Shown here piece after piece: positions 1,773 through 28,276 of a stretch of 28,276 nt of DNA (its first letter is position 1; the number at the start of each line of letters is the position of its first letter). The stretch is taken from IMG/VR virus record IMGVR_UViG_2671180294_000004. One strand, written 5' to 3'. Below the pieces are notes generated by a model that was not told the origin of the DNA, made no database searches, and saw only the letters and a program-made list of their open reading frames with translations. The stretch is from a virus. Lineage: Duplodnaviria > Heunggongvirae > Uroviricota > Caudoviricetes. Made by a program: the position numbers and the translations under genes.

Positions 1773-5453
<3,681 letters not shown>

Positions 5454-5473
<20 letters not shown>

Positions 5474-6773: not shown

Positions 6774-6782
6774 GGGATGTTT

Positions 6783-7115: not shown

Positions 7116-7170
7116 CTTTACCCTTCATCACTAAAGGCCGCCTGTGCGGCTTTTTTTACGGGATTTTTTT

Positions 7171-8196: not shown

Positions 8197-8237
8197 TCAT
8201 GGCCCTTCGGGGCCATTTTCTCTCTGTGGAGGAGTTC

Positions 8238-8636: not shown

Positions 8637-8647
8637 CGGGAGGCGCT

Positions 8648-9001: not shown

Positions 9002-9012
9002 AAGGGGGATGT

Positions 9013-9983: not shown

Positions 9984-9990
9984 GGACGCT

Positions 9991-10731: not shown

Positions 10732-10746
10732 TCCGGAGAGTCAGCG

Positions 10747-11585: not shown

Positions 11586-14139
11586 ACCGGTAGGCGATCT
11601 GGTCGTTGATTTGAGTCTGGATGCGGCCAGATTTGACGAGCAGATGGCCAGAGTCAGGCGTCATTTTTCCGGTACGGAAAGTGATGCGAAAAAAACAGCG
11701 GCAGTCGTTGAACAGTCGCTGAGCCGACAGGCGCTGGCTGCACAGAAAGCGGGGATTTCCGTCGGGCAGTATAAAGCCGCCATGCGTATGCTGCCTGCAC
11801 AGTTCACCGACGTGGCCACGCAGCTTGCAGGGGGGCAGAATCCCTGGCTGATCCTGCTGCAACAGGGTGGTCAGGTTAAGGACTCCTTCGGCGGGATGAT
11901 CCCCATGTTCAGGGGGCTTGCCGGCGCGATCACCCTGCCGATGGTGGGGGCCACCTCGCTGGCGGTGGCGACCGGTGCGCTGGCGTATGCCTGGTATCAG
12001 GGCAACTCAACCCTGTCCGATTTCAACAAAACGCTGGTCCTTTCCGGTAATCAGGCGGGACTGACGGCAGATCGTATGCTGGTCCTGTCCAGAGCCGGGC
12101 AGGCGGCAGGGCTGACGTTTAACCAGACCAGCGAGTCACTCAGCGCACTGGTTAAGGCGGGGGTAAGCGGTGAGGCTCAGATTGCGTCCATCAGCCAGAG
12201 TGTGGCGCGTTTCTCCTCTGCATCCGGCGTGGAGGTGGACAAGGTCGCTGAAGCCTTCGGGAAGCTGACCACAGACCCGACGTCGGGGCTGACGGCGATG
12301 GCACGCCAGTTCCATAACGTGACGGCGGAGCAGATTGCGTATGTTGCTCAGTTGCAGCGTTCCGGCGATGAAGCCGGGGCATTGCAGGCGGCGAACGAGG
12401 CCGCAACGAAAGGGTTTGATGACCAGACCCGCCGCCTGAAAGAGAACATGGGCACGCTGGAGACCTGGGCAGACAGGACTGCACGTGCATTCAAATCCAT
12501 GTGGGATGCGGTGCTGGATATTGGTCGTCCTGATACCGCGCAGGAGATGCTGATTAAGGCAGAGGCTGCGTTTAAGAAAGCAGACGACATCTGGAATCTG
12601 CGCAAGGATGATTATTTCGTTAACGATGAAGCACGGGCGCGTTACTGGGATGATCGTGAAAAAAAACGCCTGGAGCGGGATGCAGCCCAAAAGAGGGTAG
12701 ATCAACAGCGTCAACAGGACAAAAATGCGCAGCAGCAGAGCGATACCGAAGCGTCACGGCTGAAATATACCGAAGAGGCGCAGAAGGCTTACGAACGGCT
12801 GCAGACGCCGCTGGAGAAATATACCGCCCGTCAGGAAGAACTGAACAAGGCACTGAAAGACGGAAAAATCCTGCAGGCAGATTACAACACGCTGATGGCG
12901 GCGGCGAAAAAGGATTATGAAGCGACGCTGAAAAAGCCGAAACAGTCCGGCGTGAAGGTGTATGCGGGCGATCGTCAGGAAGACAGTGCTCATGCGGCCC
13001 TGCTGACGCTTCAGGCAGAACTCCGGACGCTGGAGAAGCATGCCGGAGCGAATGAGAAAATCAGCCAGCAGCGCCGGGATTTGTGGAAGGCAGAAAGTCA
13101 GTTCGCGGTACTGGAGGAGGCGGCACAACGTCGCCAGCTGTCCGCACAGGAGAAATCCCTGCTGGCGCATAAAGACGAGACGCTGGAGTACAAACGCCAG
13201 CTGGCTGCACTTGGTGACAAGGTTACGTATCAGGAGCACCTGAATGCGCTGGCGCAGCAGGCGGATAAATTCGCACAGCAGCAACGGGCAAAACGGGCAG
13301 CCATTGATGCGAAAAACCGGGGGCTGACTGACCGGCAGGCAGCGCGGGAAGCCACGGAACAGCGCCTGAAGGAACAGTATGGCGATAATCCTCTGGCGCT
13401 GAATAACGTCATGTCAGAGCAGAAAAAGACCTGGGCGGCTGAAGACCAGCTTCGCGGGAGCTGGATGGCAGGCCTGAAGTCCGGCTGGAGTGAGTGGGAA
13501 GAGAGCGCCACGGACAGTATGTCACAGGTTAAAAGTGCAGCCACGCAGACCTTTGATGGTATTGCACAGAATATGGCGGCGATGCTGACCGGCAGTGAAC
13601 AGAACTGGCGCAGCTTCACCCGCTCCGTGCTGTCCATGATGACAGAAATTCTGCTTAAGCAGGCAATGGTGGGGATTGTCGGGAGTATCGGCAGCGCCAT
13701 TGGCGGGGCTGTTGGTGGCGGCGCATCCGCGTCAGGTGGTACAGCCATTCAGGCCGCTGCGGCGAAATTCCATTTTGCAACCGGGGGATTTACGGGAACC
13801 GGCGGCAAATATGAGCCAGCGGGGATTGTTCACCGTGGTGAATTTGTCTTCACGAAGGAGGCAACCAGCCGGATTGGCGTGGGGAATCTCTACCGGCTGA
13901 TGCGCGGCTATGCGGAAGGTGGTTATGTGGGCGGTGCCGGAAGTCCGGCGCAGATGCGGCGGGCTGAAGGCATTAATTTTAATCAGAACAATCACGTGGT
14001 GATTCAGAACGACGGTACGAATGGTCTGCCAGGTCCACAGATGATGAAGGCCGTGTATGACATGGCCCGCAAGGGTGCCCGTGATGAAATTCAGACACAG
14101 ATGCGTGATGGTGGCCTGTTCTCCGGAGGTGGACGATGA
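11578..14139 (+). CDS. H: Tail tape measure protein (lambda gpH)
   Basis: 853-aa ORF MAEPVGDLVVDLSLDAARFDEQMARVRRHFSGTESDAKK… with the lambda H sequence, a coiled-coil-rich centre and a Gly-rich C-terminal region. Confidence 0.95.
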   Translation: MAEPVGDLVVDLSLDAARFDEQMARVRRHFSGTESDAKKTAAVVEQSLSRQALAAQKAGISVGQYKAAMRMLPAQFTDVATQLAGGQNPWLILLQQGGQVKDSFGGMIPMFRGLAGAITLPMVGATSLAVATGALAYAWYQGNSTLSDFNKTLVLSGNQAGLTADRMLVLSRAGQAAGLTFNQTSESLSALVKAGVSGEAQIASISQSVARFSSASGVEVDKVAEAFGKLTTDPTSGLTAMARQFHNVTAEQIAYVAQLQRSGDEAGALQAANEAATKGFDDQTRRLKENMGTLETWADRTARAFKSMWDAVLDIGRPDTAQEMLIKAEAAFKKADDIWNLRKDDYFVNDEARARYWDDREKKRLERDAAQKRVDQQRQQDKNAQQQSDTEASRLKYTEEAQKAYERLQTPLEKYTARQEELNKALKDGKILQADYNTLMAAAKKDYEATLKKPKQSGVKVYAGDRQEDSAHAALLTLQAELRTLEKHAGANEKISQQRRDLWKAESQFAVLEEAAQRRQLSAQEKSLLAHKDETLEYKRQLAALGDKVTYQEHLNALAQQADKFAQQQRAKRAAIDAKNRGLTDRQAAREATEQRLKEQYGDNPLALNNVMSEQKKTWAAEDQLRGSWMAGLKSGWSEWEESATDSMSQVKSAATQTFDGIAQNMAAMLTGSEQNWRSFTRSVLSMMTEILLKQAMVGIVGSIGSAIGGAVGGGASASGGTAIQAAAAKFHFATGGFTGTGGKYEPAGIVHRGEFVFTKEATSRIGVGNLYRLMRGYAEGGYVGGAGSPAQMRRAEGINFNQNNHVVIQNDGTNGLPGPQMMKAVYDMARKGARDEIQTQMRDGGLFSGGGR

Positions 14140-14465
14140 AAACCTTCCGCTGGAAAGTGAAACCCGGTATGGATGTGGCTTCGGCCCCTTCTGTAAGAAA
14201 GGTGCGCTTTGGTGATGGCTATTCCCAGCGAGCGCCTGCCGGGCTGAATGCCAACCTGAAAACGTACAGCGTGACGCTTTCTGTCCCCCGTGAGGAGGCC
14301 ATGGTACTGGAGTCGTTTCTGGAAGAGCACGGGGGCTGGAAAGCCTTTCTGTGGACGCCGCCTTATGAGTGGCGGCAGATAAAGGTGACCTGCGCAAAAT
14401 GGTCGTCGCGGGTCAGTATGCTGCGTGTTGAGTTCAGCGCAGAGTTTGAACAGGTGGTGAACTGA
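14136..14465 (+). CDS. M: Tail tip protein (lambda gpM)
   Basis: 109-aa ORF MKTFRWKVKPGMDVAS…EFSAEFEQVVN matching lambda M; start overlaps the H stop. Confidence 0.9.
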   Translation: MKTFRWKVKPGMDVASAPSVRKVRFGDGYSQRAPAGLNANLKTYSVTLSVPREEAMVLESFLEEHGGWKAFLWTPPYEWRQIKVTCAKWSSRVSMLRVEFSAEFEQVVN

Positions 14466-15163
14466 TGCAGGATATCCGGCAGGAAACACTGAATGAATGC
14501 ACCCGTGCGGAGCAGTCGGCCAGCGTGGTGCTCTGGGAAATCGATCTGACAGAGGTCGGTGGAGAACGTTATTTTTTCTGTAATGAGCAGAACGAAAAAG
14601 GTGAGCCGGTCACCTGGCAGGGGCGACAGTATCAGCCGTATCCCATTCAGGGGAGTGGTTTTGAACTGAATGGCAAAGGCACCAGTACGCGCCCCACGCT
14701 GATGGTTTCTAACCTGTACGGTATGGTCACCGGGATGGCGGAAGATCTACAGAGTCTGGTCGGCGGAACGGTGGTCCGGCGTAAGGTTTACGCCCGTTTT
14801 CTGGATGCGGTGAACTTCGTCAACGGAAACAGTGACGCCGATCCGGAGCAGGAGGTGATCAGCCGCTGGCGCATTGAGCAGTGCAGCGAACTGAGCGCGG
14901 TGAGTGCCTCTTTTGTACTGTCCACGCCGACGGAAACAGATGGCGCTGTTTTTCCGGGACGTATCATGCTGGCCAACACCTGCACCTGGACCTATCGCGG
15001 CGATGAGTGCGGTTATCACGGTCCGGCGGTCGCGGATGAATATGACCAGCCAACGTCCGACATCACGAAGGATAAATGCAGCAAATGCCTGAGTGGCTGT
15101 AAGTTTCGCAATAACGTCGGCAACTTTGGCGGCTTCCTTTCCATTAACAAACTTTCGCAGTAA
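14465..15163 (+). CDS. L: Tail tip protein (lambda gpL)
   Basis: 232-aa ORF MQDIRQETLNECTRAEQSASVVLWEIDLTEVGGERYFFCNEQNEKGEPVTWQGRQYQPYPIQGSGFELNGKG… matching lambda L. Confidence 0.9.
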   Translation: MQDIRQETLNECTRAEQSASVVLWEIDLTEVGGERYFFCNEQNEKGEPVTWQGRQYQPYPIQGSGFELNGKGTSTRPTLMVSNLYGMVTGMAEDLQSLVGGTVVRRKVYARFLDAVNFVNGNSDADPEQEVISRWRIEQCSELSAVSASFVLSTPTETDGAVFPGRIMLANTCTWTYRGDECGYHGPAVADEYDQPTSDITKDKCSKCLSGCKFRNNVGNFGGFLSINKLSQ

Positions 15164-15168
15164 ATCCC

Positions 15169-15912
15169 ATGACAGAGACAGAATCAGCGATTCTGGCGCA
15201 CGCCCGGCGATGTGCTCCAGCGGAGTCGTGCGGCTTCGTGGTAAGAACGCCGGAGGGGGAAAGATATTTCCCCTGCGTGAATATCTCCGGTGAGCCGGAG
15301 GCGTATTTCCGTATGTCGCCGGAAGACTGGCTGCAGGCAGAGATGCAGGGTGAGATTGTGGCACTGGTCCACAGCCACCCCGGTGGTCTGCCCTGGCTGA
15401 GTGAGGCCGACCGGCGGCTGCAGGTGCAGAGTGATTTGCCGTGGTGGCTGGTCTGCCGGGGGGCGATTCACAAGTTCCGCTGTGTGCCACATCTTACCGG
15501 GCGGCGCTTTGAGCACGGGGTGACGGACTGTTACACGCTGTTCCGGGATGCTTACCATCTGGCGGGGATTGAGATGCCGGATTTTCATCGTGAGGATGAC
15601 TGGTGGCGTCACGGTCAGAATCTCTATCTGGATAATCTGGAGGCCACAGGGCTGTATCAGGTGCCGTTGTCAGCGGCGCAGCCGGGCGATGTGCTGCTGT
15701 GCTGTTTTGGTTCATCGGTGCCGAATCATGCCGCCATTTACTGTGGTGACGGCGAGCTGCTGCACCATATTCCTGAACAACTGAGCAAACGAGAGAGGTA
15801 TACCGACAAATGGCAGCGACGCACACACTCCCTCTGGCGTCACCGGGCATGGCACGCATCTGCCTTTACGGGGATTTGCAACGATTTGGCCGCCGCATCG
15901 ACCTTCGTGTGA
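15169..15912 (+). CDS. K: Tail tip assembly protein (lambda gpK), long form with JAMM/MPN and NlpC/P60 domains
   Basis: Matches lambda K. The long ORF includes an upstream Glu and an HSHPGGLPWLSEAD JAMM-type metal-binding motif, with the Cys/His NlpC/P60-like region downstream. The classical lambda annotation begins at the internal ATG at 15313 (199 aa). Confidence 0.85.
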   Translation: MTETESAILAHARRCAPAESCGFVVRTPEGERYFPCVNISGEPEAYFRMSPEDWLQAEMQGEIVALVHSHPGGLPWLSEADRRLQVQSDLPWWLVCRGAIHKFRCVPHLTGRRFEHGVTDCYTLFRDAYHLAGIEMPDFHREDDWWRHGQNLYLDNLEATGLYQVPLSAAQPGDVLLCCFGSSVPNHAAIYCGDGELLHHIPEQLSKRERYTDKWQRRTHSLWRHRAWHASAFTGICNDLAAASTFV

Positions 15913-16481
15913 AAACGGGTGCCGAAGCCATCCGGGCGATGGCCACACAGCTCCCTGCGTTTCGTCAGAAGCTGAGCGACGGCTGGTATCAGGTGCGTAT
16001 TGCCGGGCAGGATGTTAGCACGTCCGGATTAACGGCGCAGTTACATGAGGCTCTGCCTGACGGCGCTGTGATTCATATTGTTCCCAGAGTCGCCGGGGCC
16101 AAGTCAGGTGGTGTATTCCAGATTGTCCTGGGAGCAGCCGCCATTGCCGGATCATTCTTTACCGCCGGAGCCACCCTTGCAGCATGGGGGGCTGCCATTG
16201 GTGCCGGTGGTATGACCGGCATTCTGTTTTCTCTCGGTGCCAGTATGGTGCTCGGCGGTGTGGCTCAGATGCTGGCACCGAAAGCCAGAACTCCCCGCAC
16301 ACAGACAACGGATAACGGTAAGCAGAACATCTATTTCTCCTCACTGGATAACATGGTTGCCCAGGGCAATGTTATGCCTGTTCTGTATGGTGAAATGCGC
16401 GTGGGGTCACGTGTGGTATCTCAGGAGATCAGCACGGCAGACGAAGGGGACGGTGGTCAGGTTGTGGTGATTGGTCGCTGA
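15810..16481 (+). CDS. I: Tail tip assembly protein (lambda gpI)
   Basis: 223-aa ORF MAATHTLPLASPGMARICLYGDLQRFGRRIDLRVKTGAEAIRA… matching lambda I; overlaps the K 3' end as in lambda. Confidence 0.9.
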   Translation: MAATHTLPLASPGMARICLYGDLQRFGRRIDLRVKTGAEAIRAMATQLPAFRQKLSDGWYQVRIAGQDVSTSGLTAQLHEALPDGAVIHIVPRVAGAKSGGVFQIVLGAAAIAGSFFTAGATLAAWGAAIGAGGMTGILFSLGASMVLGGVAQMLAPKARTPRTQTTDNGKQNIYFSSLDNMVAQGNVMPVLYGEMRVGSRVVSQEISTADEGDGGQVVVIGR

Positions 16482-16541
16482 TGCAAAATGTTTTATGTGA
16501 AATCGCCTCCGGGCGGTTTTATCGTTTATGGAGCATGACGA

Positions 16542-19500
16542 ATGGGTAAAGGCAGCAGTAAGGGGCATACCCCGCGCGAAGCGAAGGACAACCTGAAGTC
16601 CACGCAGCTGCTGAGTGTGATCGATGCCATCAGCGAAGGGCCGGTTGAAGGTCCGGTGGATGGATTAAAAAGCGTGCTGCTGAACAGTACGCCGGTGCTG
16701 GACAGTGAGGGGAATACCAACATCTCCGGCGTCACGGTGGTGTTCCGGGCAGGTGAGCAGGAGCAGTCACCGCCGGAGGGATTTGAATCCTCCGGCTCCG
16801 AGACGGTGCTGGGTACGGAAGTGAAATATGACACGCCGATCACCCGGACCATCACGTCGGCAAACATTGACCGACTGCGTTTTACCTTCGGTGTACAGGC
16901 ACTGGTGGAAACCACCTCAAAGGGAGACAGGAATCCGTCTGAAGTTCGCCTGCTGGTTCAGATACAGCGTAACGGTGGCTGGGTGACGGAAAAAGACATC
17001 ACCATTAAGGGCAAAACCACCTCGCAGTATCTGGCCTCGGTGGTGGTGGATAACCTGCCGCCGCGCCCGTTTAATATCCGGATGCGCAGAATGACGCCGG
17101 ACAGCACCACAGACCAGCTGCAGAACAAAACGCTCTGGTCGTCATACACCGAAATCATCGATGTGAAACAGTGCTACCCGAACACGGCACTGGTCGGCGT
17201 ACAGGTGGATTCGGAGCAGTTCGGCAGCCAGCAGGTGAGCCGTAATTATCATCTTCGCGGGCGCATTCTGCAGGTGCCGTCGAACTATAATCCGCAGACG
17301 CGGCAATACAGCGGTATCTGGGACGGAACGTTAAAACCGGCATACAGCAACAACATGGCCTGGTGTCTGTGGGATATGCTGACCCATCCGCGCTATGGCA
17401 TGGGGAAACGTCTTGGTGCGGCAGATGTGGATAAATGGGCGCTGTATGTCATCGGCCAGTACTGTGACCAGTCGGTGCCGGACGGCTTTGGCAGCACGGA
17501 GCCGCGCATCACCTGTAATGCCTGGCTGACCACACAGCGCAAGGCGTGGGATGTGCTCAGTGATTTCTGCTCGGCGATGCGCTGTATGCCGGTATGGAAC
17601 GGGCAGACGCTGACGTTCGTGCAGGACCGACAGTCGGATAAGGTGTGGGCCTATAACCGCAGTAATGTGGTGATGCCGGATGATGGCGCGCCGTTCCGCT
17701 ACAGTTTCAGCGCCCTGAAAGACCGCCATAATGCCGTTGAGGTGAACTGGATTGACCCGGATAACGGCTGGGAGACGGCGACAGAGCTTGTGGAGGATAC
17801 GCAGGCCATTGTCCGTTACGGTCGTAACGTCACGAAGATGGATGCCTTTGGCTGTACCAGCCGGGGGCAGGCACACCGCGCCGGGCTGTGGCTGATTAAA
17901 ACGGAACTGCTGGAGACGCAGACCGTGGATTTCAGCGTGGGTGCTGAAGGGCTTCGTCATGTACCGGGCGATGTCATTGAAATCTGCGATGATGACTATG
18001 CCGGTATCCGCACCGGCGGGCGCGTGCTGGCGGTGAACAGCCAGACCCGGACGCTGACGCTCGACCGTGAAATCACGCTGCCATCCTCCGGCACCACGCT
18101 GATAAGCCTGGTTGACGGGCAGGGGAATCCGGTCAGCGTGGAGGTCCAGTCCGTCACCGACGGCGTGAAGGTAAAAGTGAGCCGTGTTCCTGACGGTGTT
18201 GCTGAATACAGCGTGTGGGGGCTGAAGCTGCCGACGCTGCACCAGCGATTGTTCCGCTGCGTGAGTATCCGTGAGAACGACGACGGCACGTATGCCATCA
18301 CCGCCGTGCAGCATGTGCCGGAAAAAGAAGCCATCGTGGATAACGGGGCGCACTTTGACGGCGACCAGAGCGGCACGGTGAATGGTGTCACGCCGCCAGC
18401 GGTGCAGCACCTGACTGCCGAAGTCACCGCAGACAGCGGGGAATATCAGGTGCTGGCGCGCTGGGACACGCCGAAGGTGGTGAAGGGCGTGAGCTTCCTG
18501 CTCCGTCTGACCGTAACAGCGGATGACGGCAGTGAGCGGCTGGTCAGCACGGCCCGGACGACGGAAACCACTTACCGCTTCACACAACTGGCGCTGGGGA
18601 ACTACAGGCTGACAGTCCGGGCAGTAAATGCGTGGGGGCAGCAGGGCGATCCGGCGTCGGTATCGTTCCGGATTGCCGCACCGGCAGCGCTGTCGCGGAT
18701 TGAGCTGACGCCGGGCTATTTTCAGATAACCGCAACGCCGCATCTTGCCGTTTATGACCCGACGGTACAGTTTGAGTTCTGGTTCTCGGAAAAGCGGATT
18801 GCGGATATCAGGCAGGTTGAAACCAGCGCCCGCTATCTTGGCACGGCGCTGTACTGGATAGCCGCCAGTATCAATATCAAACCGGGCCATGATTATTATT
18901 TTTACGTTCGCAGTGTGAACACCGTTGGCAAATCGGCATTCGTGGAGGCTGTTGGTCAGCCGAGTGATGATGCATCCGGTTATCTGGATTTTTTCAAAGG
19001 CGAGATAGGGAAAACCCATCTGGCTCAGGAGCTGTGGACGCAGATTGATAACGGTCAGCTTGCGCCTGACCTGGCTGAAATCAGGACGTCCATTACGGAT
19101 GTCAGCAATGAAATCACGCAGACTGTCAATAAGAAACTGAAAGACCAGAGTGCGGCAATCCAGCAGATACAGAAGGTTCAGGTTGATACAAATAATAACC
19201 TGAACAGCATGTGGGCTGTGAAGCTGCAGCAGATGCAGGACGGACGCCTTTATATCGCGGGTATTGGTGCCGGTATTGAGAACACCCCTGACGGCATGCA
19301 GAGTCAGGTGCTGCTGGCGGCGGACAGGATTGCGATGGTTAATCCTGCGAATGGCAACACAAAACCGATGTTTGTTGGTCAGGGCGATCAGATATTCATG
19401 AACGACGTGTTCCTGAAACGCCTGACGGCTCCCACCATTACCAGCGGCGGTAATCCTCCGGCATTTTCCCTGACACCGGACGGAAAACTGACCGCTAAAA

Positions 19501-20021
19501 ATGCAGATATCAGTGGCAGTGTGAATGCGAACGCCGGGACGCTCAACAATGTCACAATTAATGAGAACTGTCAGATTAAGGGGAAACTGTCAGCCAACCA
19601 GATTGAAGGCGATATAGTCAAAACAGTGGGTAAGGCTTTTCCGCGGGACTCCCGGGCACCGGAGCGGTGGCCATCAGGGACCATTACCGTCAGGATTTAT
19701 GACGATCAGCCTTTTGACAGGCAAATTGTTATTCCGGCGGTGGCATTCAGCGGCGCTAAACATGAGCGGGAGAATAACGATATTTATTCGTCATGCCGCC
19801 TGATAGTACGGAAAAACGGTGCTGAAATTTATAACCGTACCGCGCTGGATAATACGCTGATTTACAGTGGTGTTATTGATATGCCAGCTGGTCGCGGCCA
19901 CATGACGCTGGAGTTTTCGGTGTCAGCATGGCTGGTGAATAACTGGTATCCCACAGCAAGTATCAGCGATTTGCTGGTTGTGGTGATGAAGAAAGCCACC
20001 GCAGGCATCAGTATCAGCTGA
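16542..20021 (+). CDS. J: Central tail fibre / host specificity protein (lambda gpJ-type), 1159 aa
   Basis: [54 protein letters not shown]… is lambda J-like over most of its length, followed by a C-terminal receptor-binding region. Confidence 0.95.
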
Positions 20022-20041
20022 ATTTTATAACCCATATACGG

Positions 20042-20068
20042 GCGCCAGAAATGGCGCCTTTTTTATTG
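20042..20068 (+). terminator. Rho-independent terminator after J
   Basis: GGCGCCA-GAAA-TGGCGCC hairpin followed by TTTTTTATT, 20 nt after the J stop. Confidence 0.7.
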
Positions 20069-20088
20069 CAGAAAAGCGAGAGGTAATT

Positions 20089-20159
20089 ATGCGTAAAGTT
20101 TGTGCAGCCATTTTGTCCGCAGCCATCTGTCTGTCCGTATCCGGTGCGCCTGCATGGGC
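20089..20159 (+). CDS. lom: lom 5' fragment (signal-peptide region only), cut off at a scaffold join (N at 20160)
   Basis: MRKVCAAILSAAICLSVSGAPAW is the same N-terminus as the lom copy at 20792, with the same RBS; the sequence then changes abruptly at the single N. Confidence 0.6.
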
Positions 20160-20160
20160 N

Positions 20161-20721
20161 GACGGAAAGCTGACCGCTAAAAATGCGGATATCAGTGGCA
20201 GTGTGAATGCGAACGCCGGGACGCTCAACAATGTCACGGTAAATGAAAACTGTACGATTAAGGGCATGCTGGAGGCGACTCAGGTCAGAGGTGACTTCGT
20301 TAAAGCTGTATCCAAATCATTTCCGAAACAGGCTGGTACGTGGGGTAACACGGAAACACCAAACGGGACGGTTACAGTCACCATAAGCGATGATCATAAC
20401 TTTGACCGCCAGATTATTATTCCGCCCATTATTTTTAACGGTATAGCGTATGACGATCCGGGGAGCGGAAATAACCCAGGAGGCACGCGATACACGGGTT
20501 ATGGTTTTGAAGTTCGCAAAAACGGCGTATTAATCGCATCCAGAGAAACTAAAGGTGCCATTCCCGGTAGTTACAGTGCAGTTATTGATATGCCTAGTGG
20601 TGGTGGTAGCGTCACTCTGGAGTTTAAGATTTTCCAGAAAGGCAATCAGGGGGCAGGCAATATCACCGACTGTACGGTGATTGTGACCAAAAAAGCGGCT
20701 TCCGGCATCAGTATTCGTTGA
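20161..20721 (+). CDS. 3' fragment of a second, divergent J-type host-specificity gene (alternative C-terminal receptor-binding domain); 5' end missing at the scaffold join
   Basis: The first ~90 nt are near-identical to J 19488..19580 ([25 protein letters not shown]) and then diverge while keeping the same domain organisation, ending …TKKAASGISIR. Followed by its own terminator and a lom gene. Confidence 0.7.
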   Translation, partial: DGKLTAKNADISGSVNANAGTLNNVTVNENCTIKGMLEATQVRGDFVKAVSKSFPKQAGTWGNTETPNGTVTVTISDDHNFDRQIIIPPIIFNGIAYDDPGSGNNPGGTRYTGYGFEVRKNGVLIASRETKGAIPGSYSAVIDMPSGGGSVTLEFKIFQKGNQGAGNITDCTVIVTKKAASGISIR

Positions 20722-20791: not shown

Positions 20792-21274
20792 ATGCGTAAA
20801 GTTTGTGCAGCCATTTTGTCCGCAGCCATTTGCCTGGCCGTATCCGGTGCGCCTGCATGGGCGTCTGAACATCAGTCCACGCTGAGCGCGGGGTATCTTC
20901 ATGCCCGGACCAACGTTCCCGGCAGTGATGATCTGAACGGGATTAACGTGAAATACCGTTATGAGTTTACGGATACGCTGGGGCTGGTGACGTCATTCAG
21001 CTATGCAGGAGACAAGAATCGCCAGCTGACCCGTTACAGCGATACCCGCTGGCATGAAGATTCCGTGCGTAACCGCTGGTTCAGCGTGATGGCGGGGCCG
21101 TCTGTGCGCGTGAATGAATGGTTCAGCGCGTATGCGATGGCGGGTGTGGCTTACAGCCGTGTGTCGACTTTTTCCGGGGATTATATCCGCGTAACTGACA
21201 ATAAGGGGAAAACGCACGATGTGCTGACCGGAAGTGATGACGGTCGCCACAGCAACACGTCTCTGGCGCACTGA
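20792..21274 (+). CDS. lom: Lom/Ail/OmpX-family outer-membrane protein, 3'-truncated by an apparent frameshift deletion (possible pseudogene)
   Basis: Signal peptide followed by Lom-like beta-barrel sequence (GINVKYRYEFTD…SAYAMAGVAYSRVST…) that stops prematurely at …HSNTSLAH*. The last Lom strand (WRTDGFIVGVGYKF*) is present in the +1 frame at 21264..21308. Confidence 0.6.
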   Translation: MRKVCAAILSAAICLAVSGAPAWASEHQSTLSAGYLHARTNVPGSDDLNGINVKYRYEFTDTLGLVTSFSYAGDKNRQLTRYSDTRWHEDSVRNRWFSVMAGPSVRVNEWFSAYAMAGVAYSRVSTFSGDYIRVTDNKGKTHDVLTGSDDGRHSNTSLAH

Positions 21275-21334
21275 CGGTTTCATCGTGGGTGTCGGTTATA
21301 AATTCTGATTAGCCAGGTAACACAGTGTTATGAC

Positions 21335-21362
21335 AGCCCGCCGGTTCAGGCGGGCTTTTTTG
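21335..21362 (+). terminator. Rho-independent terminator between lom and stf
   Basis: AGCCCGCC-GGTTCA-GGCGGGCT hairpin followed by TTTTTT; an identical copy lies at 23859..23886. Confidence 0.65.
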
Positions 21363-21372
21363 TGGGGTGAAT

Positions 21373-21526
21373 ATGGCAGTAAAGATTTCAGGTGTACTGA
21401 AAGACGGCACAGGAAAACCGGTACAGAACTGCACAATCCAGCTGAAAGCAAAACGTAACAGCACCACGGTGGTGGTGAACACGCTGGCCTCAGAAAATCC
21501 GGATGAAGCCGGGCGTTACAGCATGG
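21373..21526 (+). CDS. stf: stf 5' fragment (side tail fibre N-terminus), interrupted by the N gap at 21527..21537
   Basis: [51 protein letters not shown] is identical to the start of the complete stf at 23897, then runs into the Ns. Confidence 0.6.
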
Positions 21527-21537
21527 NNNNNNNNNNN

Positions 21538-21799
21538 GTATGCGATGGTGGGTGTGGCTTACAGCCGTGTGTCGACTTTCTCCGGGGATTATCTCCGCGT
21601 AACTGACAACAAGGGGAAAACGCACGATGTGCTGACCGGAAGTGATGACGGTCGCCACAGCAACACGTCTCTGGCGTGGGGGGCTGGCGTGCAGTTTAAC
21701 CCGACCGAATCCGTGACCATTGACCTTGCTTATGAAGGTTCCGGTAGTGGTGACTGGCGAACGGATGCATTTATTGTTGGTATCGGATACCGTATCTGA
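21538..21799 (+). CDS. lom: lom 3' fragment (intact C-terminus, second allele), 5' end lost in the N gap
   Basis: …YAMVGVAYSRVSTFSGDYLRVTDNKGKTHDVLTGSDDGRHSNTSLAWGAGVQFNPTESVTIDLAYEGSGSGDWRTDAFIVGIGYRI*, a complete Lom C-terminal half. Confidence 0.65.
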
Positions 21800-21903
21800 C
21801 AACAGACGCCGATTTATCTTCTGTAAATATTGTTATGATACGCAGGTTCATCCACCTTATGGGGTGAACTGCGTTTGAGGAAACGTAAAGTTACACTGTC
21901 CTG

Positions 21904-21937
21904 AAGCCCGTGGCGTCACTGCTGCGGGCTTTTTTTA
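21904..21937 (+). terminator. Terminator-like hairpin with T-run upstream of the second stf copy
   Basis: AGCCCG…CGGGCT stem followed by TTTTTTTATT. Confidence 0.4.
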
Positions 21938-21950
21938 TTGGTGGAAAAGT

Positions 21951-23522
21951 ATGACAGTAAAAATTTCTGGCGTGCTTAAAGATGGCACAGGAAAACCAGT
22001 ACAGAACTGCACCATTGTGCTGAAGGCCAGACGAACCAGCAGCACGATGGTGGTGAACACGGTGGCCTCTGAAAATCCGGATGAAGCCGGACGTTACAGC
22101 ATGGATGTTGAGCATGGTCAGTACAGCGTCACCCTGCTGGTTGAAGGTTTTCCGCCTTCACATGCCGGGACCATTACCGTCTATGAAGGTTCCAGACCAG
22201 GTACGCTGAATGATTTTCTCGGTGCCATGACGGAGGATGATGTCCGACCGGAGGCACTGCGCCGCTTTGAGCAGATGGTGGAAGAGGTGTCACGTAACGC
22301 CTCCGCGGTTGCACAGAATACGGCAGCCGCGAAAAAATCAGCCAGCGAGGCGGCAACTCATGCAACCGATGCTGCAGCCTCAGCACGTGCCGCCAGCACG
22401 TCAGCCGGACAGGCCGCGTCGTCGGCTCAGTCAGCGTCTTCCAGCGCAGGAACGGCATCGACAAAGGCCCGTGAAGCAGCAAAAAGTGCTGCTGCAGAGT
22501 CATCAAAAAGCGCGGCAGCTACCAGCGCCAGTGCCGCGAAAACGTCAGAAACGAATGCCGCAGCATCACAAAAATCGGCAGCCACTTCTGCATCCACAGC
22601 GACCACGAAGGCGTCAGAAGCTGCCACCTCGGCACGGGGTGCGGCGGCCTCAAAAGAGGCAGCGAAATCTTCAGAAACGAATGCATCATCAAGTGCCAGT
22701 AGTGCAGCTTCCTCGGCAACGGCGGCAGGAAATTCCGCGAAGGCGGCAAAAACGTCCGAGACGAACGCTAAGTCTTCTGAAACAGCAGCGGGACAGAGCG
22801 CCTCAGCTGCGGCAGGTTCAAAAACAGCGGCTGCATTATCTGCCAGTGCCGCGTCAACAAGTGCCGGGCAGGCCTCAGCCAGTGCCACCGCCGCCGGAAA
22901 ATCGGCAGAAAGCGCCGCATCATCCGCTTCAACAGCCACAACGAAGGCTGGCAAAGCCACTGAGCAAGCCACTGCAGCAGCGAGGTCTGCTTCTGCAGCA
23001 AAAACCTCTGAAACAAATGCAAAGACTTCAGCAGACAATGCTGCTTCCTCTAAGGCAGCAGCCGCATCGTCAGCCAGTTCAGCGGCGTCATCGGCATCAT
23101 CTGCGTCTGCTTCAAAAGATGAGGCGACCAGACAAGCGTCAGCAGCGAAAGGTAGTGCCACGACAGCAACAACGAAAGCATCAGAGGCGGCAGGCAGTGC
23201 GACGGCTGCATCTCAGAGCAAAGTTGCTGCTGAATCCGCGGCAACGCGCGCCGAGACAGCAGCAAAACGGGCAGAGGATATTGCATCCGCCGTGGCGCTT
23301 GAGGATGCGAGCACGACGAAAAAGGGGATAGTACAGCTCAGCAGTGCGACCAACAGCACTTCCGAGTCACTGGCGGCAACGCCAAAAGCGGTTAAGGCGG
23401 TAATGGGTGAAACGAACAAGAAAGCGCCCTTAAATAGTCCTGCACTGACCGGAACGCCAACAACACCAACTGCGCGACAGGGAACGAATAATACCCAAAT
23501 CGCAAGCACGGCTTTCGTTATG
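21951..23522 (+). CDS. stf: Side tail fibre protein, paralogous copy (5' partial; 3' end lost in the N gap at 23523..23708)
   Basis: [69 protein letters not shown]… followed by the Ala/Ser/Thr-rich shaft; about 90% identical to stf at 23897 but with a different upstream region. Confidence 0.7.
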
Positions 23523-23708
23523 NNNNNNNNNNNNNNNNNNNNNNNNNNNNNNNNNNNNNNNNNNNNNNNNNNNNNNNNNNNNNNNNNNNNNNNNNNNNNN
23601 NNNNNNNNNNNNNNNNNNNNNNNNNNNNNNNNNNNNNNNNNNNNNNNNNNNNNNNNNNNNNNNNNNNNNNNNNNNNNNNNNNNNNNNNNNNNNNNNNNNN
23701 NNNNNNNN

Positions 23709-23798
23709 ATCCGCGTAACTGACAATAAGGGGAAAACGCACGATGTGCTGACCGGAAGTGATGACGGTCGCCACAGCAACACGTCTCTGGCGCACTGA
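23709..23798 (+). CDS. lom: lom 3' fragment (truncated allele), duplicate of 21185..21274
   Basis: Identical to the 3' end of the lom at 20792..21274, including the premature stop; begins immediately after the N run. Confidence 0.5.
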   Translation: MRVTDNKGKTHDVLTGSDDGRHSNTSLAH

Positions 23799-23896
23799 CG
23801 GTTTCATCGTGGGTGTCGGTTATAAATTCTGATTAGCCAGGTAACACAGTGTTATGACAGCCCGCCGGTTCAGGCGGGCTTTTTTGTGGGGTGAAT

Positions 23897-26800
23897 ATGG
23901 CAGTAAAGATTTCAGGTGTACTGAAAGACGGCACAGGAAAACCGGTACAGAACTGCACAATCCAGCTGAAAGCAAAACGTAACAGCACCACGGTGGTGGT
24001 GAACACGCTGGCCTCAGAAAATCCGGATGAAGCCGGGCGTTACAGCATGGACGTTGAGTACGGTCAGTACAGCGTTATTCTGTTGGTGGAAGGATTCCCG
24101 CCGTCACATGCCGGGACCATCACCGTGTATGAAGATTCCCGACCCGGTACGCTGAATGATTTTCTCGGTGCCATGACGGAGGATGATGCCCGTCCGGAGG
24201 CACTGCGCCGTTTTGAGCTGATGGTGGAAGAGGTGGCGCGTAACGCGTCCGCGGTGGCACAGAACACGGCAGCCGCGAAGAAATCAGCCAGCGATGCCAG
24301 CACATCAGCCCGTGAGGCGGCAACCCATGCGACTGATGCTGCAGATTCAGCACGTGCAGCCAGCACGTCAGCCGGACAGGCCGCTTCGTCGGCTCAGTCA
24401 GCGTCTTCCAGCGCAGGAACGGCATCAACAAAGGCCACTGAAGCCTCAAAAAGTGCTGCCGCTGCAGAGTCCTCAAAAAGCGCGGCGGCTACCAGTGCCG
24501 GTGCGGCGAAAACGTTAGAAACGAATGCGGCAGCGTCACAACAATCAGCAGCCACTTCTGCATCCACCGCGACCACGAAAGCGTCAGAAGCTGCCACCTC
24601 AGCCCGGGATGCGTCGGCTTCAAAAGAGGCGGCAAAATCATCAGAAACGAACGCATCATCAAGCGCCAGTAGCGCAGCTTCCTCGGCGACGGCGGCTGCA
24701 AATTCTGCGAAGGCGGCCAAAACGTCCGAGACGAACGCCAGGTCTTCTGAAACGGCAGCGGGACAGAGTGCCTCAGCTGCGGCAGGCTCAAAAACAGCGG
24801 CTGCGTCGTCTGCCAGCGCCGCGTCAACAAGTGCCGGGCAGGCCTCAGCCAGTGCCACCGCCGCCGGAAAATCGGCAGAAAGCGCCGCATCATCCGCTTC
24901 AACAGCCACAACGAAGGCTGGCGAAGCCACTGAGCAGGCCACGGCAGCAGCGAGGTCAGCTTCCGCAGCGAAGACATCCGAAACGAACGCGAAAGCGTCG
25001 GAAACCCGTGCAGAATCCTCAAAAACGGCTGCCGCATCGTCCGCCAGTTCGGCGGCGTCATCGGCATCATCGGCGTCTGCTTCAAAAGATGAGGCGACCA
25101 GACAGGCGTCAGCAGCGAAGGGCAGCGCCACGACGGCATCCACGAAGGCGACAGAGGCTGCTGGTAGTGCGACGGCAGCAGCTCAGAGCAAAAGTACGGC
25201 GGAATCTGCAGCAACGCGCGCTGAGACAGCGGCAAAACGGGCAGAGGATATTGCATCCGCCGTGGCGCTTGAGGATGCGAGCACGACGAAAAAGGGGATA
25301 GTACAGCTCAGTAGTGCGACTAACAGCACTTCCGAGTCACTGGCGGCAACACCAAAAGCCGTTAAGGCCGCGTATGACCTGGCTAACGGGAAATACACCG
25401 CACAGGATGCAACGACAGCACAGAAAGGGATAATCCAGCTAAGCAGCGCGACCAACAGCACGTCTGAAACGCTGGCGGCAACGCCAAAGGCAGTAAAAGC
25501 AGCCAATGACAATGCTGAGAAACGTCTGCAGAAAGATCAGAACGGTGCGGATATCCCTGGCAAAGACACCTTTACGAAAAATATTGGTGCCTGCCGTGCC
25601 TTCGGTGGGTCAGTAAGCACAACAACAGGAAACTGGACGACTGCACAGTTTATCGAGTGGCTGGATTCTCAGGGAGCATTTAACCATCCATACTGGATGT
25701 GCAAGGGTTCCTGGTCTTATGGCAATAATAAAATCATTACTGATACTGGCTGCGGTAATATTCATCTCGCCGGAGCTGTCATTGAAGTAATGGGGATAAA
25801 GTCAGCGATGACGATCCGCATTACCACTCCGACCACATCCAGCGGTGGCGGAACAACCAACGCCCAGTTTACCTATATTAATCACGGAACAGATTATTCA
25901 CCTGGCTGGCGAAGGGACTATAACTCCAGAAATAAGCCAACGGCATCAGAGATCGGGGCGCTACCGTCAGGTGGAACAGCAGTATCATCAGTTAATCTGG
26001 CTTCAAAAGGTCGGGTAGCCGCGCTGACAGACAATACGCAGGGGGCAGCAGGTCTTGAGTTATACGAGGTGTATAACAACGGATATCCAACAGCGTATGG
26101 AAATATCATTCACCTGAAAGGGATGACAGCCGTTGGCGAAGGTGAGTTACTCATCGGCTGGAGTGGTACAAGCGGTGCTCATGCTCCGGCATTTATTCGT
26201 TCACGACGGGATACGACCGACGCAAACTGGTCGCCGTGGGCGCAGCTTTACACCTCGGCTCATCCTCCTGCAGAGTTTTATCCAGTCGGTGCACCAATCC
26301 CGTGGCCATCAGATACCGTTCCGTCTGGTTATGCCCTGATGCAGGGGCAGACTTTTGACAAATCTGCTTACCCGAAACTTGCAGCCGCTTATCCGTCAGG
26401 CGTGATCCCTGATATGCGTGGCTGGACGATTAAGGGCAAGCCCGCCAGTGGTCGTGCCGTATTGTCTCAGGAACAGGATGGCATTAAATCGCACACCCAC
26501 AGCGCCAGCGCATCCAGTACGGATTTGGGGACGAAAACCACATCGTCGTTTGATTACGGCACTAAATCCACGAATAACACCGGGGCGCATACGCACAGTC
26601 TGAGCGGCTCTACAAGTTCAGCTGGGGCCCACCAACATAGTCAGACTGGGCCCAGAACGAATAGCGGGAGTCAACCTACTGGAATGTTTCCGGCAGGGAG
26701 TACTCAAGTTAGCGGGACTAATCAGGTTGGTATCAGTGGCTCATTAACCAGTGGCACCTCCCAATGGGTAGGTAAATCATCTTCAGAAGGAAACCATACA

Positions 26801-26980
26801 CACTCACTGTCCGGCACAGCAGCATCTGCGGGTGCACACGCGCATACTGTCGGTATTGGTGCTCATACGCACTCTGTTGCGATTGGTTCACATGGACACA
26901 CCATCACCGTTAACGCTGCTGGTAACGCGGAAAACACCGTCAAAAACATCGCATTTAACTATATTGTGAGGCTCGCATAA
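23897..26980 (+). CDS. stf: Side tail fibre protein Stf (complete), about 1027 aa
   Basis: Lambda Stf-like N-terminus [26 protein letters not shown]…; long Ala/Ser/Thr-rich shaft; tandem GI(V/I)[11 protein letters not shown](S/T)[10 protein letters not shown] motifs; His-rich GAHxHS repeats; C-terminus …[25 protein letters not shown] as in lambda Stf. The track ORF starts 2 codons upstream (23891). Confidence 0.9.
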
Positions 26981-27496
26981 TGGCATTCAGAATGAGTGAA
27001 CAAGCACGGACCATAAAAATTTATAACCTGCTGGCCGGAACTAATGAATTTATTGGTGAAGGTGACGCATATATTCCGCCTCATACAGGTCTGCCTGCAA
27101 ACATCGTGGCATCTCGTTGAAGATCATCGGGGTAAAACGGTTTATGACGTGGCTTCCGGCGACGCGTTATTTATTTCTGAACTCGGCTCATTACCGGAAA
27201 ATGTCACCTGGTTATCCCCGGAAGGGGAGTTTCAGAAGTGGAACGGCACAGCCTGGGTGAAGGATACGGAAGCAGAAAAACTGTTCCGGATCCGGGAGGC
27301 GGAAGAAACAAAAAACAGCCTGATGCAGGTAGCCAGTGAGCATATAGCGCCGCTTCAGGATGCTGTGGATCTGGAGATCGCAACGGAGAAAGAAACCTTG
27401 TTGCTGGAAGCCTGGAAAAAGTATCGGGTGTTGCTGAACCGTGTTGATACATCAACTGCACCGGATATTGAATGGCCAGTAGCACCTATAGGGTAA
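26980..27496 (+). pseudogene. tfa: Tail fibre assembly protein tfa, frame-disrupted (internal deletion of about 65 nt relative to lambda Tfa)
   Basis: N-terminal 46 codons ([41 protein letters not shown]…) end at a TGA at 27118..27120. The Tfa C-terminal sequence ([28 protein letters not shown]…[10 protein letters not shown]) continues in the +1 frame from 27104. Confidence 0.75.
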
Positions 27497-27582
27497 ATTC
27501 GTAATGATTACCTAAATACGTTATTCTTTTGTTAAAAAAGTGATTTTGCTATAGGTAGGGAGTATGTTCTTGGATTAAGAAT

Positions 27583-27613
27583 AAAAAATCGCCATGAAAG
27601 AGCTTCATGGCGA
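27583..27613 (-). terminator. Rho-independent terminator oriented for minus-strand transcription
   Basis: Perfect 10-bp inverted repeat TCGCCATGAA/TTCATGGCGA (27589..27613) with a 5-nt loop, followed on the minus strand by TTTTTTAT (27581..27588). Confidence 0.5.
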
Positions 27614-27761
27614 GTACATAAACGTACAAAATGTGATGAAAGTAGAGTGGCGTAAGCCACTATATTAAGATATGACAATAGCGAAGAAAAGTAAATAACA
27701 TTTTATGGACGTTTAATTGTTAATTATAAAAACTAGAGTGCCCGATATTGTTTATCTTGCT

Positions 27762-27863
27762 TTAAAATAATGTACTCAAACCAAATTTTTGAGCTAAAAG
27801 CTCAAATAATATAAATGCAATAATAATGTTTAATAAGACAATTAGCTTGCTTTGTATTTTCAT
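27762..27863 (-). CDS. Possible small hydrophobic peptide, 33 aa (speculative)
   Basis: Minus-strand ORF MKIQSKLIVLLNIIIAFILFELLAQKFGLSTLF in AT-rich DNA; no clear Shine-Dalgarno. Could be a chance ORF. Confidence 0.15.
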   Translation of the reverse strand: MKIQSKLIVLLNIIIAFILFELLAQKFGLSTLF

Positions 27864-28245
27864 TTCGGAATACTGTTAAGTAACTTTGATGACCCTAACA
27901 ATAGATCGGAATTTTCTTAGAGTCAATGGTCACTGTTTTTGCTTGCAAAGCAAATGTTTTGGTGGTTATAAGTTGTCTTAATATAGTCACGCATGCAACT
28001 TGTTCCATGCGGAGATTAAAGATTGGAATATAACGCGAAGATGGAATTAAATTACATTTGCAATAATCAATTTATTATTACTCAATAATTACCGATATTA
28101 TTATTGTAAATTAATCATTAGAGTGCAAAAAGAAATGTAACGGCAAAATAAGAGGACGATAGCTGAGAAAAAAGCGTGCTTTCCCAATCTGGGGCAAATC
28201 ACGTCTGAATGACACCTGAAAACAGGTGGTAGCCTCAAGAAGGCT

Positions 28246-28276
28246 GGTGATGCTGCCAACTTACTGATTTAGTGTA
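28246..28276 (+). mobile_element. IS1 terminal inverted repeat (left end, insA side); the element continues beyond the window
   Basis: GGTGATGCTGCCAACTTACTGATTTAGTGTA matches the start of IS1 as I recall it, and the base composition changes abruptly from the AT-rich region before it. Confidence 0.7.

What the first reader, a model, noticed from the sequence alone, without database searches (positions are those of the whole stretch)
20161..20721. Second, divergent J-type C-terminal receptor-binding domain downstream of the complete J gene
The fragment shares a near-identical ~90-nt linker with J (…[26 protein letters not shown]…) and then diverges strongly in sequence while keeping a similar length and a similar C-terminal tail (…TKKA(T/A)AGISI(S/R)). 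Two alternative receptor-binding modules attached to a conserved linker is the signature of host-range cassette exchange. It shows that the strain carries at least two J specificities, and the conserved linker is a plausible recombination point.
Basis: partly seen in the sequence, partly recalled or inferred. Interest (0 to 1): 0.45.

Follow-up and report, generated by a model that had tools for sequence, protein, structure and literature searches.

The report
Mis-scaffolded end of prophage J gene
The "second receptor-binding domain" is a real, ordinary 3' end of a lambda-type tail-tip gene J that a draft-genome scaffolder placed behind another J gene across a one-N gap, so the tandem arrangement is an assembly artefact, not a host-range cassette.

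Summary
20161-20721 encodes 186 residues homologous over their full length to the lambda J receptor-binding end. The first 26 aa match J1 (the window's 1159-aa J) exactly; overall identity is 49.5%. But the fragment starts on the base after a 1-N scaffold gap (20160). The window is a whole draft Shigella sonnei contig with three N gaps, and after each gap the sequence restarts inside a repeated prophage gene (J or lom). Segment B (20161-21526) and segment D (23709-28276) overlap end-to-start by 342 identical bases, so segment C is wrongly placed between them. In finished S. sonnei chromosomes, B is 100% identical to the end of an intact 1165-aa J that follows the same late operon as in the window, then a 160-aa lom and the tail fibre of D. 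The lom-to-J junction occurs in none of 5,426 complete E. coli genomes or 185,579 species-representative genomes. Segment A's end and C's start lie 267 bases apart inside one lom in five natural loci. The scaffold therefore interleaves two prophage tail-end loci. That two J specificities are present in the isolate is plausible and commonplace. A cassette arrangement is not supported. Interest is low.

The parts
1..18733 (+). Segment A, first part: lambda-type late operon (terminase to tail genes) and the first 2192 nt of J (from 16542). Essentially identical to the prophage in finished S. sonnei chromosomes.
   Evidence: Window 1578-18733 shows only 1-5 scattered mismatches against L007, L009 and L012. 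J 16542-18733 is 2192/2192 identical to Ss046. The exact tape-measure protein is on record in 482 blocks of the collection.
18734..20021 (+). 3' part of the assembled J1 (1159 aa), from a different J allele. It includes the conserved linker (from 19479) and the first receptor-binding variant, RBD1 (diverging from 19583).
   Evidence: About 25 mismatches cluster between 18734 and 19573 against all finished S. sonnei loci, and similarity is lost after 19582. 97.8% identical to E. coli cM8a J. RBD1 scores E=2e-72 against the OmpC-binding A8 gpJ.
20022..20159 (+). Intergenic spacer with a terminator-like hairpin, then the first 71 nt of a lom gene (signal peptide, from 20089). This is the end of contig A.
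   Evidence: 92% identical to 20726-20862. The last 25 nt are exact copies of 20838-20862.
20160..20160 (.). 1-N scaffold gap, present in the public record itself. This is the false junction.
   Evidence: L005, a stretch of the source contig, has an N at 8619, which is window 20160. No genome holds the junction.
20161..20721 (+). THE FINDING: the last 186 codons plus stop of a lambda-type J gene (conserved linker plus the second receptor-binding variant, RBD2). It is the authentic 3' end of the 1165-aa J of the S. sonnei reference prophage.
   Evidence: Identical to the C-terminus of J in L003, L007, L008, L009, L010 and L012. Pfam PF12421 at 94 bits. Aligns with lambda J 952-1131 at E=1.9e-37. 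97-99% identical to J of phages Evi, 2B8, cdtI and Stx2c phages.
20792..21274 (+). lom, 160 aa, truncated by a ~77-nt deletion relative to the 199-aa form.
   Evidence: Pfam Ail_Lom positions 1-159 of 199. The same 160-aa gene is present in finished S. sonnei loci. Deletion seen against RM10466.
21185..21526 (+). Tail of contig B (lom 3' end plus the first 160 nt of the stf tail-fibre gene, which starts at 21367). It is redundant with the head of contig D.
   Evidence: 342/342 identical to 23709-24050, end to start.
21527..21537 (.). 11-N scaffold gap. False junction from stf 5' end into the middle of lom.
21538..23522 (+). Segment C: 3' part of a full-length-type lom (to 21799) and the first 524 codons of a different stf (from 21951). 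It belongs with the A-tail locus and is misplaced between B and D.
   Evidence: In cM8a, L016, L017, L018 and L019, A's end and C's start are colinear and 267 nt apart inside one lom. Only 87.6% identical to the stf of the Ss046 locus.
23523..23708 (.). 186-N scaffold gap. False junction from the middle of stf into the lom 3' end.
23709..28276 (+). Segment D: lom 3' end (to 23798), stf of 1029 aa (23891-26980) and tfa (27044-27496). This is the true continuation of segment B.
   Evidence: 4565/4568 identical to Ss046 (L003 5819-10386), contiguous there with B (L003 4795-6160). The exact stf protein is encoded in CP000038.1. tfa matches Pfam Caudo_TAP.

Best explanation
The tandem layout is a scaffolding artefact of a short-read draft assembly of Shigella sonnei. 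The window is the whole of contig CXCC01000048.1 of GCA_001261015.1. The isolate holds at least two lambda-type prophage tail-end regions (J-lom-stf) that share long near-identical stretches. The assembler could not separate them, and contigs broke inside the repeated genes. The scaffolder then strung pieces of two loci into one line in the order A | B | C | D, joined by 1, 11 and 186 Ns. The real structures are most likely these. Locus X: the late operon (window 1-18733), the rest of J (about 745 nt not in the window), then B (linker, RBD2, 160-aa lom), then D (stf, tfa). This is exactly the arrangement in finished S. sonnei chromosomes. Locus Y: a J 3' end with RBD1 (18734-20159), 267 nt of lom missing from the window, then C (lom 3' end and a different stf). 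The fragment is therefore the normal C-terminal receptor-binding domain of a full-length (1165-aa) tail-tip protein J. By homology with lambda J it sits at the distal end of the J trimer at the tail tip and binds an outer-membrane protein receptor to trigger DNA injection. Shown here: identity, context and artefact. Inferred: function, and the receptor is unknown. Sub-claim, about 0.65 confidence: the fragment, not RBD1, is the authentic end of the J belonging to the operon in this window.
For: (1) The fragment starts on the base after an N. All three non-colinear junctions of the window fall on its only three N runs, and the Ns are in the public record. (2) B's last 342 nt equal D's first 342 nt, end to start. 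(3) In finished S. sonnei Ss046 (CP000038.1), B maps at 1366/1366 and D at 4565/4568, contiguous and overlapping by those 342 nt. The fragment equals the C-terminus of an intact 1165-aa J. (4) The whole of B occurs exactly in six loci, including three finished chromosomes, always behind the same late operon as segment A. (5) An 80-nt junction probe found each half thousands of times but the junction in 0 of 5,426 complete E. coli genomes. In those genomes the halves lie 701 nt apart in the normal order. The junction pattern gave 0 hits in 185,579 representative genomes. (6) A's end and C's start are colinear and 267 nt apart within one intact lom in cM8a, L016, L017, L018 and L019. (7) J1 as an exact protein is on record only in this contig. 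(8) A sister draft with a similar accession series stacks tail-fibre 5' ends at its N gaps in the same way.
Against: No reads or coverage are available, so the artefact is inferred from sequence logic and comparison, not seen directly. The exact allele of 18734-20159 and of segment C was not found above 98% identity anywhere, so locus Y is reconstructed only by colinearity with relatives. Contig B's start (the equivalent of 19479) does not fall at an obvious exact-repeat boundary within the window. The finished genomes are other isolates of the species, not this one.
Confidence: 0.9

Rival explanations
1. The layout is still an artefact, but J1 is correct as assembled. The isolate would have two full-length J genes in two prophages whose first ~2.2 kb are identical (collapsed in the assembly). 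The late operon in the window would truly end in RBD1, and the fragment would belong to the other prophage.
For: Intact 1159-aa J proteins with this type of C-terminus are common in E. coli and are 97-98% identical to J1 along their whole length, so the architecture is natural. The assembly gives one continuous sequence 16542-20021 with no N.
Against: In three finished S. sonnei chromosomes and several drafts, the operon with the exact same tape-measure protein continues into the 1165-aa J ending in the fragment. J1's exact sequence is seen on no other contig. The J1 5' part is 100% identical to the reference J, while natural 1159-aa J proteins differ from it at 11-21 residues in that part. 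That pattern is what a collapsed or chimeric join would give.
Confidence: 0.3
2. One reading: a real tandem arrangement. A complete J would be followed by a second receptor-binding cassette on the same DNA molecule, allowing host-range switching by recombination at the conserved linker.
For: As written, the scaffold has this order. The ORF 20089-20721 is open and in frame across the N. The linker is highly conserved between the two copies.
Against: The junction is an N and is absent from all finished and representative genomes searched. The B/D overlap shows the scaffold order is wrong nearby. The fragment is the end of an intact J in finished genomes of the species. No recombinase gene was seen in the window. 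The only inverted repeats are two short imperfect pairs of 18-19 nt at 83-84%. An in-frame join has a 1-in-3 chance and depends on an arbitrary gap length.
Confidence: 0.03
3. Mixed sample: the two J 3' ends come from two different strains or a contaminant sequenced together, not from two prophages of one genome.
For: The allele of 18734-20159 and of segment C has no match above 98% in any S. sonnei or E. coli locus retrieved, whereas B and D match S. sonnei at 99.9-100%.
Against: Other S. sonnei assemblies also hold J ends of the RBD1 type (P0002, P0003, P0014, P0125). Several J/lom loci per genome is the norm. Nothing else in the window suggests a mixture.
Confidence: 0.05

Closest known systems
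J (tip attachment / host specificity protein) of the lambdoid prophage in Shigella sonnei Ss046, CP000038.1 (1165 aa), and the same gene in CP032523.1 and CP041511.1
   Same: The fragment is 100% identical, in nucleotides and protein, to the last 186 codons. The downstream 160-aa lom and 1029-aa stf also match.
   Different: In the window it is cut off from its 5' part and placed after another J 3' end by the scaffolder.
Lambda gpJ C-terminal receptor-binding domain (PDB 8iyk, 8xcj; Pfam PF12421 Ig_GpJ_C), which binds LamB
   Same: Homologous over the whole domain (lambda J 952-1131, E=1.9e-37). Same conserved linker [18 protein letters not shown] and same position at the end of J.
   Different: Strongly diverged in the distal part, where receptor specificity is thought to lie. 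The receptor is therefore not necessarily LamB and is unknown.
A8 gpJ chimera (PDB 9wca; Nature 2024, PMC11338833): lambda gpJ carrying the C-terminal portion of a natural E. coli phage gpJ that uses OmpC
   Same: It shows that J C-terminal portions are functionally exchangeable modules. RBD1 of the window is its closest solved relative (E=2e-72), and RBD2 also matches it (E=2.6e-47).
   Different: That exchange was engineered. It is no evidence of a cassette at this locus. OmpC use by RBD1 is an inference from similarity only.
J of phages Evi, 2B8, PhiR26_1, PhiR29_1, cdtI and long-tailed Stx2c phages
   Same: 97.3-98.9% amino-acid identity to the fragment over all 186 residues, at the end of their J genes.
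   Different: No receptor was found for them in the searched literature.
False duplications or stacked repeat variants at scaffold gaps in short-read draft assemblies (a known class of assembly error; from my own knowledge, not tested against a reference description)
   Same: Junctions sit on N runs, contig ends are redundant (342 nt), the order conflicts with finished genomes, and a sister draft shows the same pattern.
   Different: The pipeline used for this assembly was not identified here.
Invertible tail-fibre host-range switches (Mu Gin, P1 Cin, e14 Pin type; from my own knowledge)
   Same: Natural relatives of this locus carry a recombinase next to stf/tfa (L001, L013).
   Different: Those switches act on side tail fibres and need an invertase and inverted crossover sites. 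None is present around J here.

Membership tests
Lambda-type tip attachment protein J, C-terminal receptor-binding domain (Pfam PF12421) | Sequence match to the family profile above the curated threshold | tested here: met
   94 bits against a cut-off of 26.2, profile positions 1-134 of 135. Lambda J 952-1131 at E=1.9e-37.
Lambda-type tip attachment protein J, C-terminal receptor-binding domain (Pfam PF12421) | Forms the C-terminus of a full-length J (~1130-1165 aa) encoded after the tail genes L, K and I and before lom | tested here: met
   Met in the finished S. sonnei loci that hold the identical sequence and in RM10466. Not met in the window as written, and only because of the scaffold join.
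Lambda-type tip attachment protein J, C-terminal receptor-binding domain (Pfam PF12421) | Binds a specific outer-membrane receptor | not testable with these tools
   Receptors are known for relatives only: lambda uses LamB; A8, 434 and phi330 use OmpC (PMC11338833, PMC12502783).
Scaffolding artefact (false tandem of repeat variants) | The novel junction coincides with an assembly gap | tested here: met
   N at 20160. The other two non-colinear junctions fall at the other two N runs.
Scaffolding artefact (false tandem of repeat variants) | The junction is absent from finished genomes while both flanks are present | tested here: met
   0 of 5,426 complete E. coli genomes, with 2,705 records matching one half or the other. 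0 hits in the representative genomes.
Scaffolding artefact (false tandem of repeat variants) | The segments map to a different, colinear arrangement in finished genomes of the species at ~100% identity | tested here: met
   B at 100% and D at 99.93% are contiguous in Ss046. B is exact in six loci.
Scaffolding artefact (false tandem of repeat variants) | Redundant sequence at the ends of non-adjacent contigs | tested here: met
   342/342 overlap of B's tail and D's head.
Scaffolding artefact (false tandem of repeat variants) | No reads or read pairs support the junction | not testable with these tools
   Raw reads are not available here.
Programmed host-range cassette switch (invertible or shufflon-type) | A site-specific recombinase gene next to the cassettes | tested here: not met
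   The ORFs of the J/lom/stf/tfa region (20000-28276) were read with translations and are J, lom, stf and tfa only. The full ORF list of the window shows a standard late operon, and gene calls for relatives give the same families. Not every window ORF was scanned against Pfam.
Programmed host-range cassette switch (invertible or shufflon-type) | Inverted or direct crossover sites flanking the alternative modules | tested here: not met
   Only two short imperfect inverted pairs (18-19 nt, 83-84%). The direct repeats are just the homologous gene parts.

The most novel reading that the evidence does not exclude
The join is physically real in this one isolate. An illegitimate or linker-mediated recombination would have placed a second J receptor-binding module behind the first 24 codons of lom, giving an in-frame Lom-signal-peptide/J-receptor-binding-domain fusion (20089-20721). 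Such a protein could be exported and occupy the phage receptor, acting as a decoy that excludes superinfecting phages, or it could serve as a spare host-range cassette.
Probability: 0.02. Interest if true: 0.55.

Novelty: not a real feature. Interest (0 to 1): 0.05.

Why it matters
It matters mainly as a caution. Draft scaffolds of prophage-rich genomes such as Shigella and E. coli can stack variant copies of J, lom and stf at N gaps. That creates apparent tandem host-range cassettes and chimeric ORFs: here a 210-aa 'Lom signal peptide plus J domain' ORF, and possibly a chimeric 1159-aa J that is deposited as WP_052973690.1. Scans for novel gene arrangements should treat any junction on an N as unproven. 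Biologically, the isolate probably carries two J receptor-binding variants on different prophage regions. That is normal for these bacteria and already well documented for lambdoid phages.

Tried and rejected
(1) A first junction query of 351 nt looked as if 1,995 genomes held it. Inspection showed the two halves 701 nt apart in the normal order, merged by the tool's place-joining, so I replaced it with an 80-nt probe. (2) Two scans of representative genomes, one for the junction and one for the strain-specific lom deletion, found nothing and did not locate the source. The source was found instead by exact-protein look-up. (3) I searched for the exact home of 18734-20159 and segment C through P0003, P0049, P0115 and P0125. 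All are colinear relatives at only 94-98% identity. P0001 has no gene on record. (4) Receptor assignment for RBD2 from the literature failed: no paper on phages PhiR26/29, Evi or 2B8 turned up, and the receptor-prediction preprint and the EHEC phage paper give no matching J variant. (5) I considered calling J1 a definite assembly chimera. I softened this after finding that natural intact 1159-aa J proteins of the same type exist. (6) A simple two-branch de Bruijn bubble between A and B was rejected as the full explanation. B's head is not an exact copy of A's linker, and only A's suffix (25 nt) and the B/D overlap show exact repeats within the window. (7) An error (a multi-record file made subject names ambiguous) was corrected. 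(8) Structure prediction was not run, because full-length sequence homology to solved J domains already answers the fold question.

Full report
1. THE OBSERVATION

Region 20161-20721 is an open frame of 186 codons plus a stop. Its first 104 nt match the complete J gene of the window (J1, 16542-20021, 1159 aa) at 19479-19582 in 96 of 104 positions, with only two mismatches in the first 77. The first 26 residues are identical. After that the two sequences diverge to 49.5% amino-acid identity, and they end in similar tails ([10 protein letters not shown] and KKAASGISIR). The fragment matches Pfam PF12421, the J C-terminal receptor-binding domain, at 94 bits against a cut-off of 26.2. It aligns over its full length with solved lambda J residues 952-1131 (E=1.9e-37) and with the A8 gpJ construct (E=2.6e-47). 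J1's own end does the same.

Position 20160, the base just before the fragment, is an N. The window has exactly three N runs: 20160 (1 N), 21527-21537 (11 N) and 23523-23708 (186 N). The 71 bases before the first N are the 5' end of a lom gene, a near copy of the lom start at 20792. After the second and third gaps the sequence restarts in the middle of lom-like sequence. The window therefore falls into four segments:
- A: 1-20159
- B: 20161-21526
- C: 21538-23522
- D: 23709-28276

Every non-colinear junction sits on a gap.

3. THE SCAFFOLD ORDER IS WRONG

The last 342 nt of B (21185-21526) are identical to the first 342 nt of D (23709-24050), end to start. B and D are thus overlapping contigs of one locus, and C has been put between them.

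An exact-protein look-up shows that the window is the whole of contig CXCC01000048.1 (28,276 nt) of draft assembly GCA_001261015.1. Public sources name its J protein as Shigella sonnei. The Ns are in that public record.

The exact 1029-aa tail fibre of D is encoded in CP000038.1, which I know to be the finished chromosome of S. sonnei Ss046. In that chromosome:
- B maps at 1366/1366 identity to L003 4795-6160.
- D maps at 4565/4568 to L003 5819-10386.
- The two are contiguous and overlap by the predicted 342 nt.
- The fragment equals the C-terminus of an intact 1165-aa J, followed by a 160-aa lom and the 1029-aa stf.

The whole of B is found exactly in six loci (L003, L007, L008, L009, L010, L012), three of them finished chromosomes.

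4. THE JUNCTION EXISTS NOWHERE ELSE

An 80-nt probe centred on the N found one half or the other in 2,705 records, but the junction in none of 5,426 complete E. coli genomes. A longer probe showed the two halves 701 nt apart in the normal order of linker, receptor-binding domain, lom 5' end. The junction pattern has no match in 185,579 species-representative genomes.

5. WHERE A AND C BELONG

The exact tape-measure protein of A is on record in 482 blocks of the collection. In finished chromosomes CP032523.1 and CP041511.1, and in several drafts, the same late operon runs into the 1165-aa J, then the 160-aa lom, then a ~1027-aa stf.

At nucleotide level, window 1578-18733 differs from these loci at only 1-5 scattered positions. 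From 18734 to 19573 about 25 mismatches cluster, and after 19582 similarity ends. The window therefore follows the reference prophage up to 18733 and then continues with the 3' end of a different J allele carrying RBD1.

That A-tail and segment C are colinear, with exactly 267 nt of lom between them, in E. coli cM8a (97.8% and 97.4% identity) and in L016-L019 (about 94% identity). In the scaffold they are 1,378 nt apart, with B in between.

The scaffold thus interleaves two loci:
- Locus X: operon, J, B, D.
- Locus Y: A-tail, lom, C.

6. IS J1 ITSELF CHIMERIC?

J1's exact sequence is on record only in this contig. Its first 731 residues are identical to the reference J, whereas natural 1159-aa J proteins of E. 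coli differ from the reference J at 11-21 residues in that part. This fits a collapsed repeat or a chimeric join. On that basis I judge it more likely than not (about 0.65) that the fragment, rather than RBD1, is the true end of this operon's J.

However, intact 1159-aa J proteins with an RBD1-type end are common and 97-98% identical to J1 throughout. A real second full-length J with an identical 5' part therefore cannot be excluded. The exact allele of 18734-20159 and of C was not found above 98% anywhere, so its home in this isolate remains unknown.

7. MECHANISM OF THE THING ITSELF

By homology with lambda J (PDB 8iyk, 8xcj), the fragment is the distal receptor-binding domain of the trimeric tail-tip protein, preceded by the conserved linker. 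Relatives use LamB (lambda) or OmpC (A8 gpJ, PMC11338833; phages 434 and phi330, PMC12502783). RBD1 is closest to the OmpC-binding A8 domain (E=2e-72). RBD2 is 97-99% identical to J of phages Evi, 2B8, cdtI and Stx2c phages, for which I found no receptor assignment. Function is inferred, not shown.

8. THE CASSETTE IDEA

Across alleles, J is a mosaic. It is about 97% conserved up to residue ~800, has a divergent block at 801-920, a conserved island at 921-1000 that includes the linker, and then the variable receptor-binding domain. That fits the well-known modular evolution of lambdoid J genes, and engineered swaps of the C-terminal portion work (PMC11338833).

There is no local switching apparatus, though. 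No recombinase gene was seen among the window's genes, and only two short, imperfect inverted repeats lie around the modules. Also, the window departs from the reference J at 18734, not at the linker.

9. VERDICT

The sequence is real and already known. The arrangement is not a real feature.

A sister draft, CXFU01000079.1, shows the same stacking of tail-fibre 5' ends at its N gaps, which suggests a systematic pipeline effect. From memory, some scaffolders insert a single N when two contigs are predicted to abut or overlap but cannot be merged. I could not identify the pipeline used here.

Interest is low. The residual novel reading, a real Lom-signal-peptide/receptor-binding-domain fusion or spare cassette, has a probability of about 0.02.

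Noticed in passing
window 20792-21274 and 23709-23798: lom is only 160 aa. It ends '...NTSLAH*' because of a ~77-nt deletion relative to the 199-aa lom of E. coli RM10466 and cM8a. The same truncated gene is in finished S. sonnei loci, so it is a real, probably inactivating lesion: the last beta-strands are missing (Pfam Ail_Lom positions 1-159 of 199).
   Followed up: partly
window 20089-20721: Gene callers read across the N and report a 210-aa ORF made of the Lom signal peptide plus the J receptor-binding domain (Pfam Ail_Lom weak, plus Ig_GpJ_C). It is an artefactual fusion protein. That exact sequence is not in the protein collection.
   Followed up: yes
window 16542-20021: The 1159-aa J of the window is deposited as WP_052973690.1 / CSO87020.1 [Shigella sonnei] but is seen on this one contig only. 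Its first 2192 nt are identical to the reference S. sonnei J, and mismatches begin abruptly at 18734. It may be an assembly chimera that has entered RefSeq.
   Followed up: partly
L004 (GCA_001250415.1, CXFU01000079.1) 1-5435: A sister draft stacks three copies of a tail-fibre 5' region. Two of them restart at the same sequence after N runs (1155-1174 and 2234-2244), and there is a 1-N gap at 5435. This is the same artefact type in another assembly.
   Followed up: partly
P0001 (608-aa 'Host specificity protein J [Shigella sonnei]'): This protein contains an internal duplication of about 200 residues of the J distal region. No gene with this product is on record in the contig collection. It is probably another misassembly product.
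   Followed up: no
window 28276 (right end), equal to L003 10386: In Ss046 an IS1 transposase gene lies about 220 nt beyond the point where the window ends, so the draft contig probably stops at an IS1 copy.
   Followed up: partly
window J1 residues ~801-920 (about 18940-19300): A second strongly divergent block (7.5-57% identity against RM10466 J) lies upstream of the conserved linker island (residues 921-1000). The distal third of J is therefore a patchwork of at least two variable modules, not just the terminal domain.
   Followed up: partly
window 18734-20159 and 21538-23522: The exact allele of this J 3' end, lom and stf was not found above 98% nucleotide identity in any E. coli or S. sonnei locus retrieved. 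Its chromosomal home in this isolate is unknown.
   Followed up: partly
L001 9429-10019; L013 7841-8431: Natural relatives of this tail-end region carry a recombinase/resolvase-family gene just after stf and tfa, the kind of gene used by invertible side-tail-fibre switches. The window has no such gene; in Ss046, IS1 follows instead.
   Followed up: no
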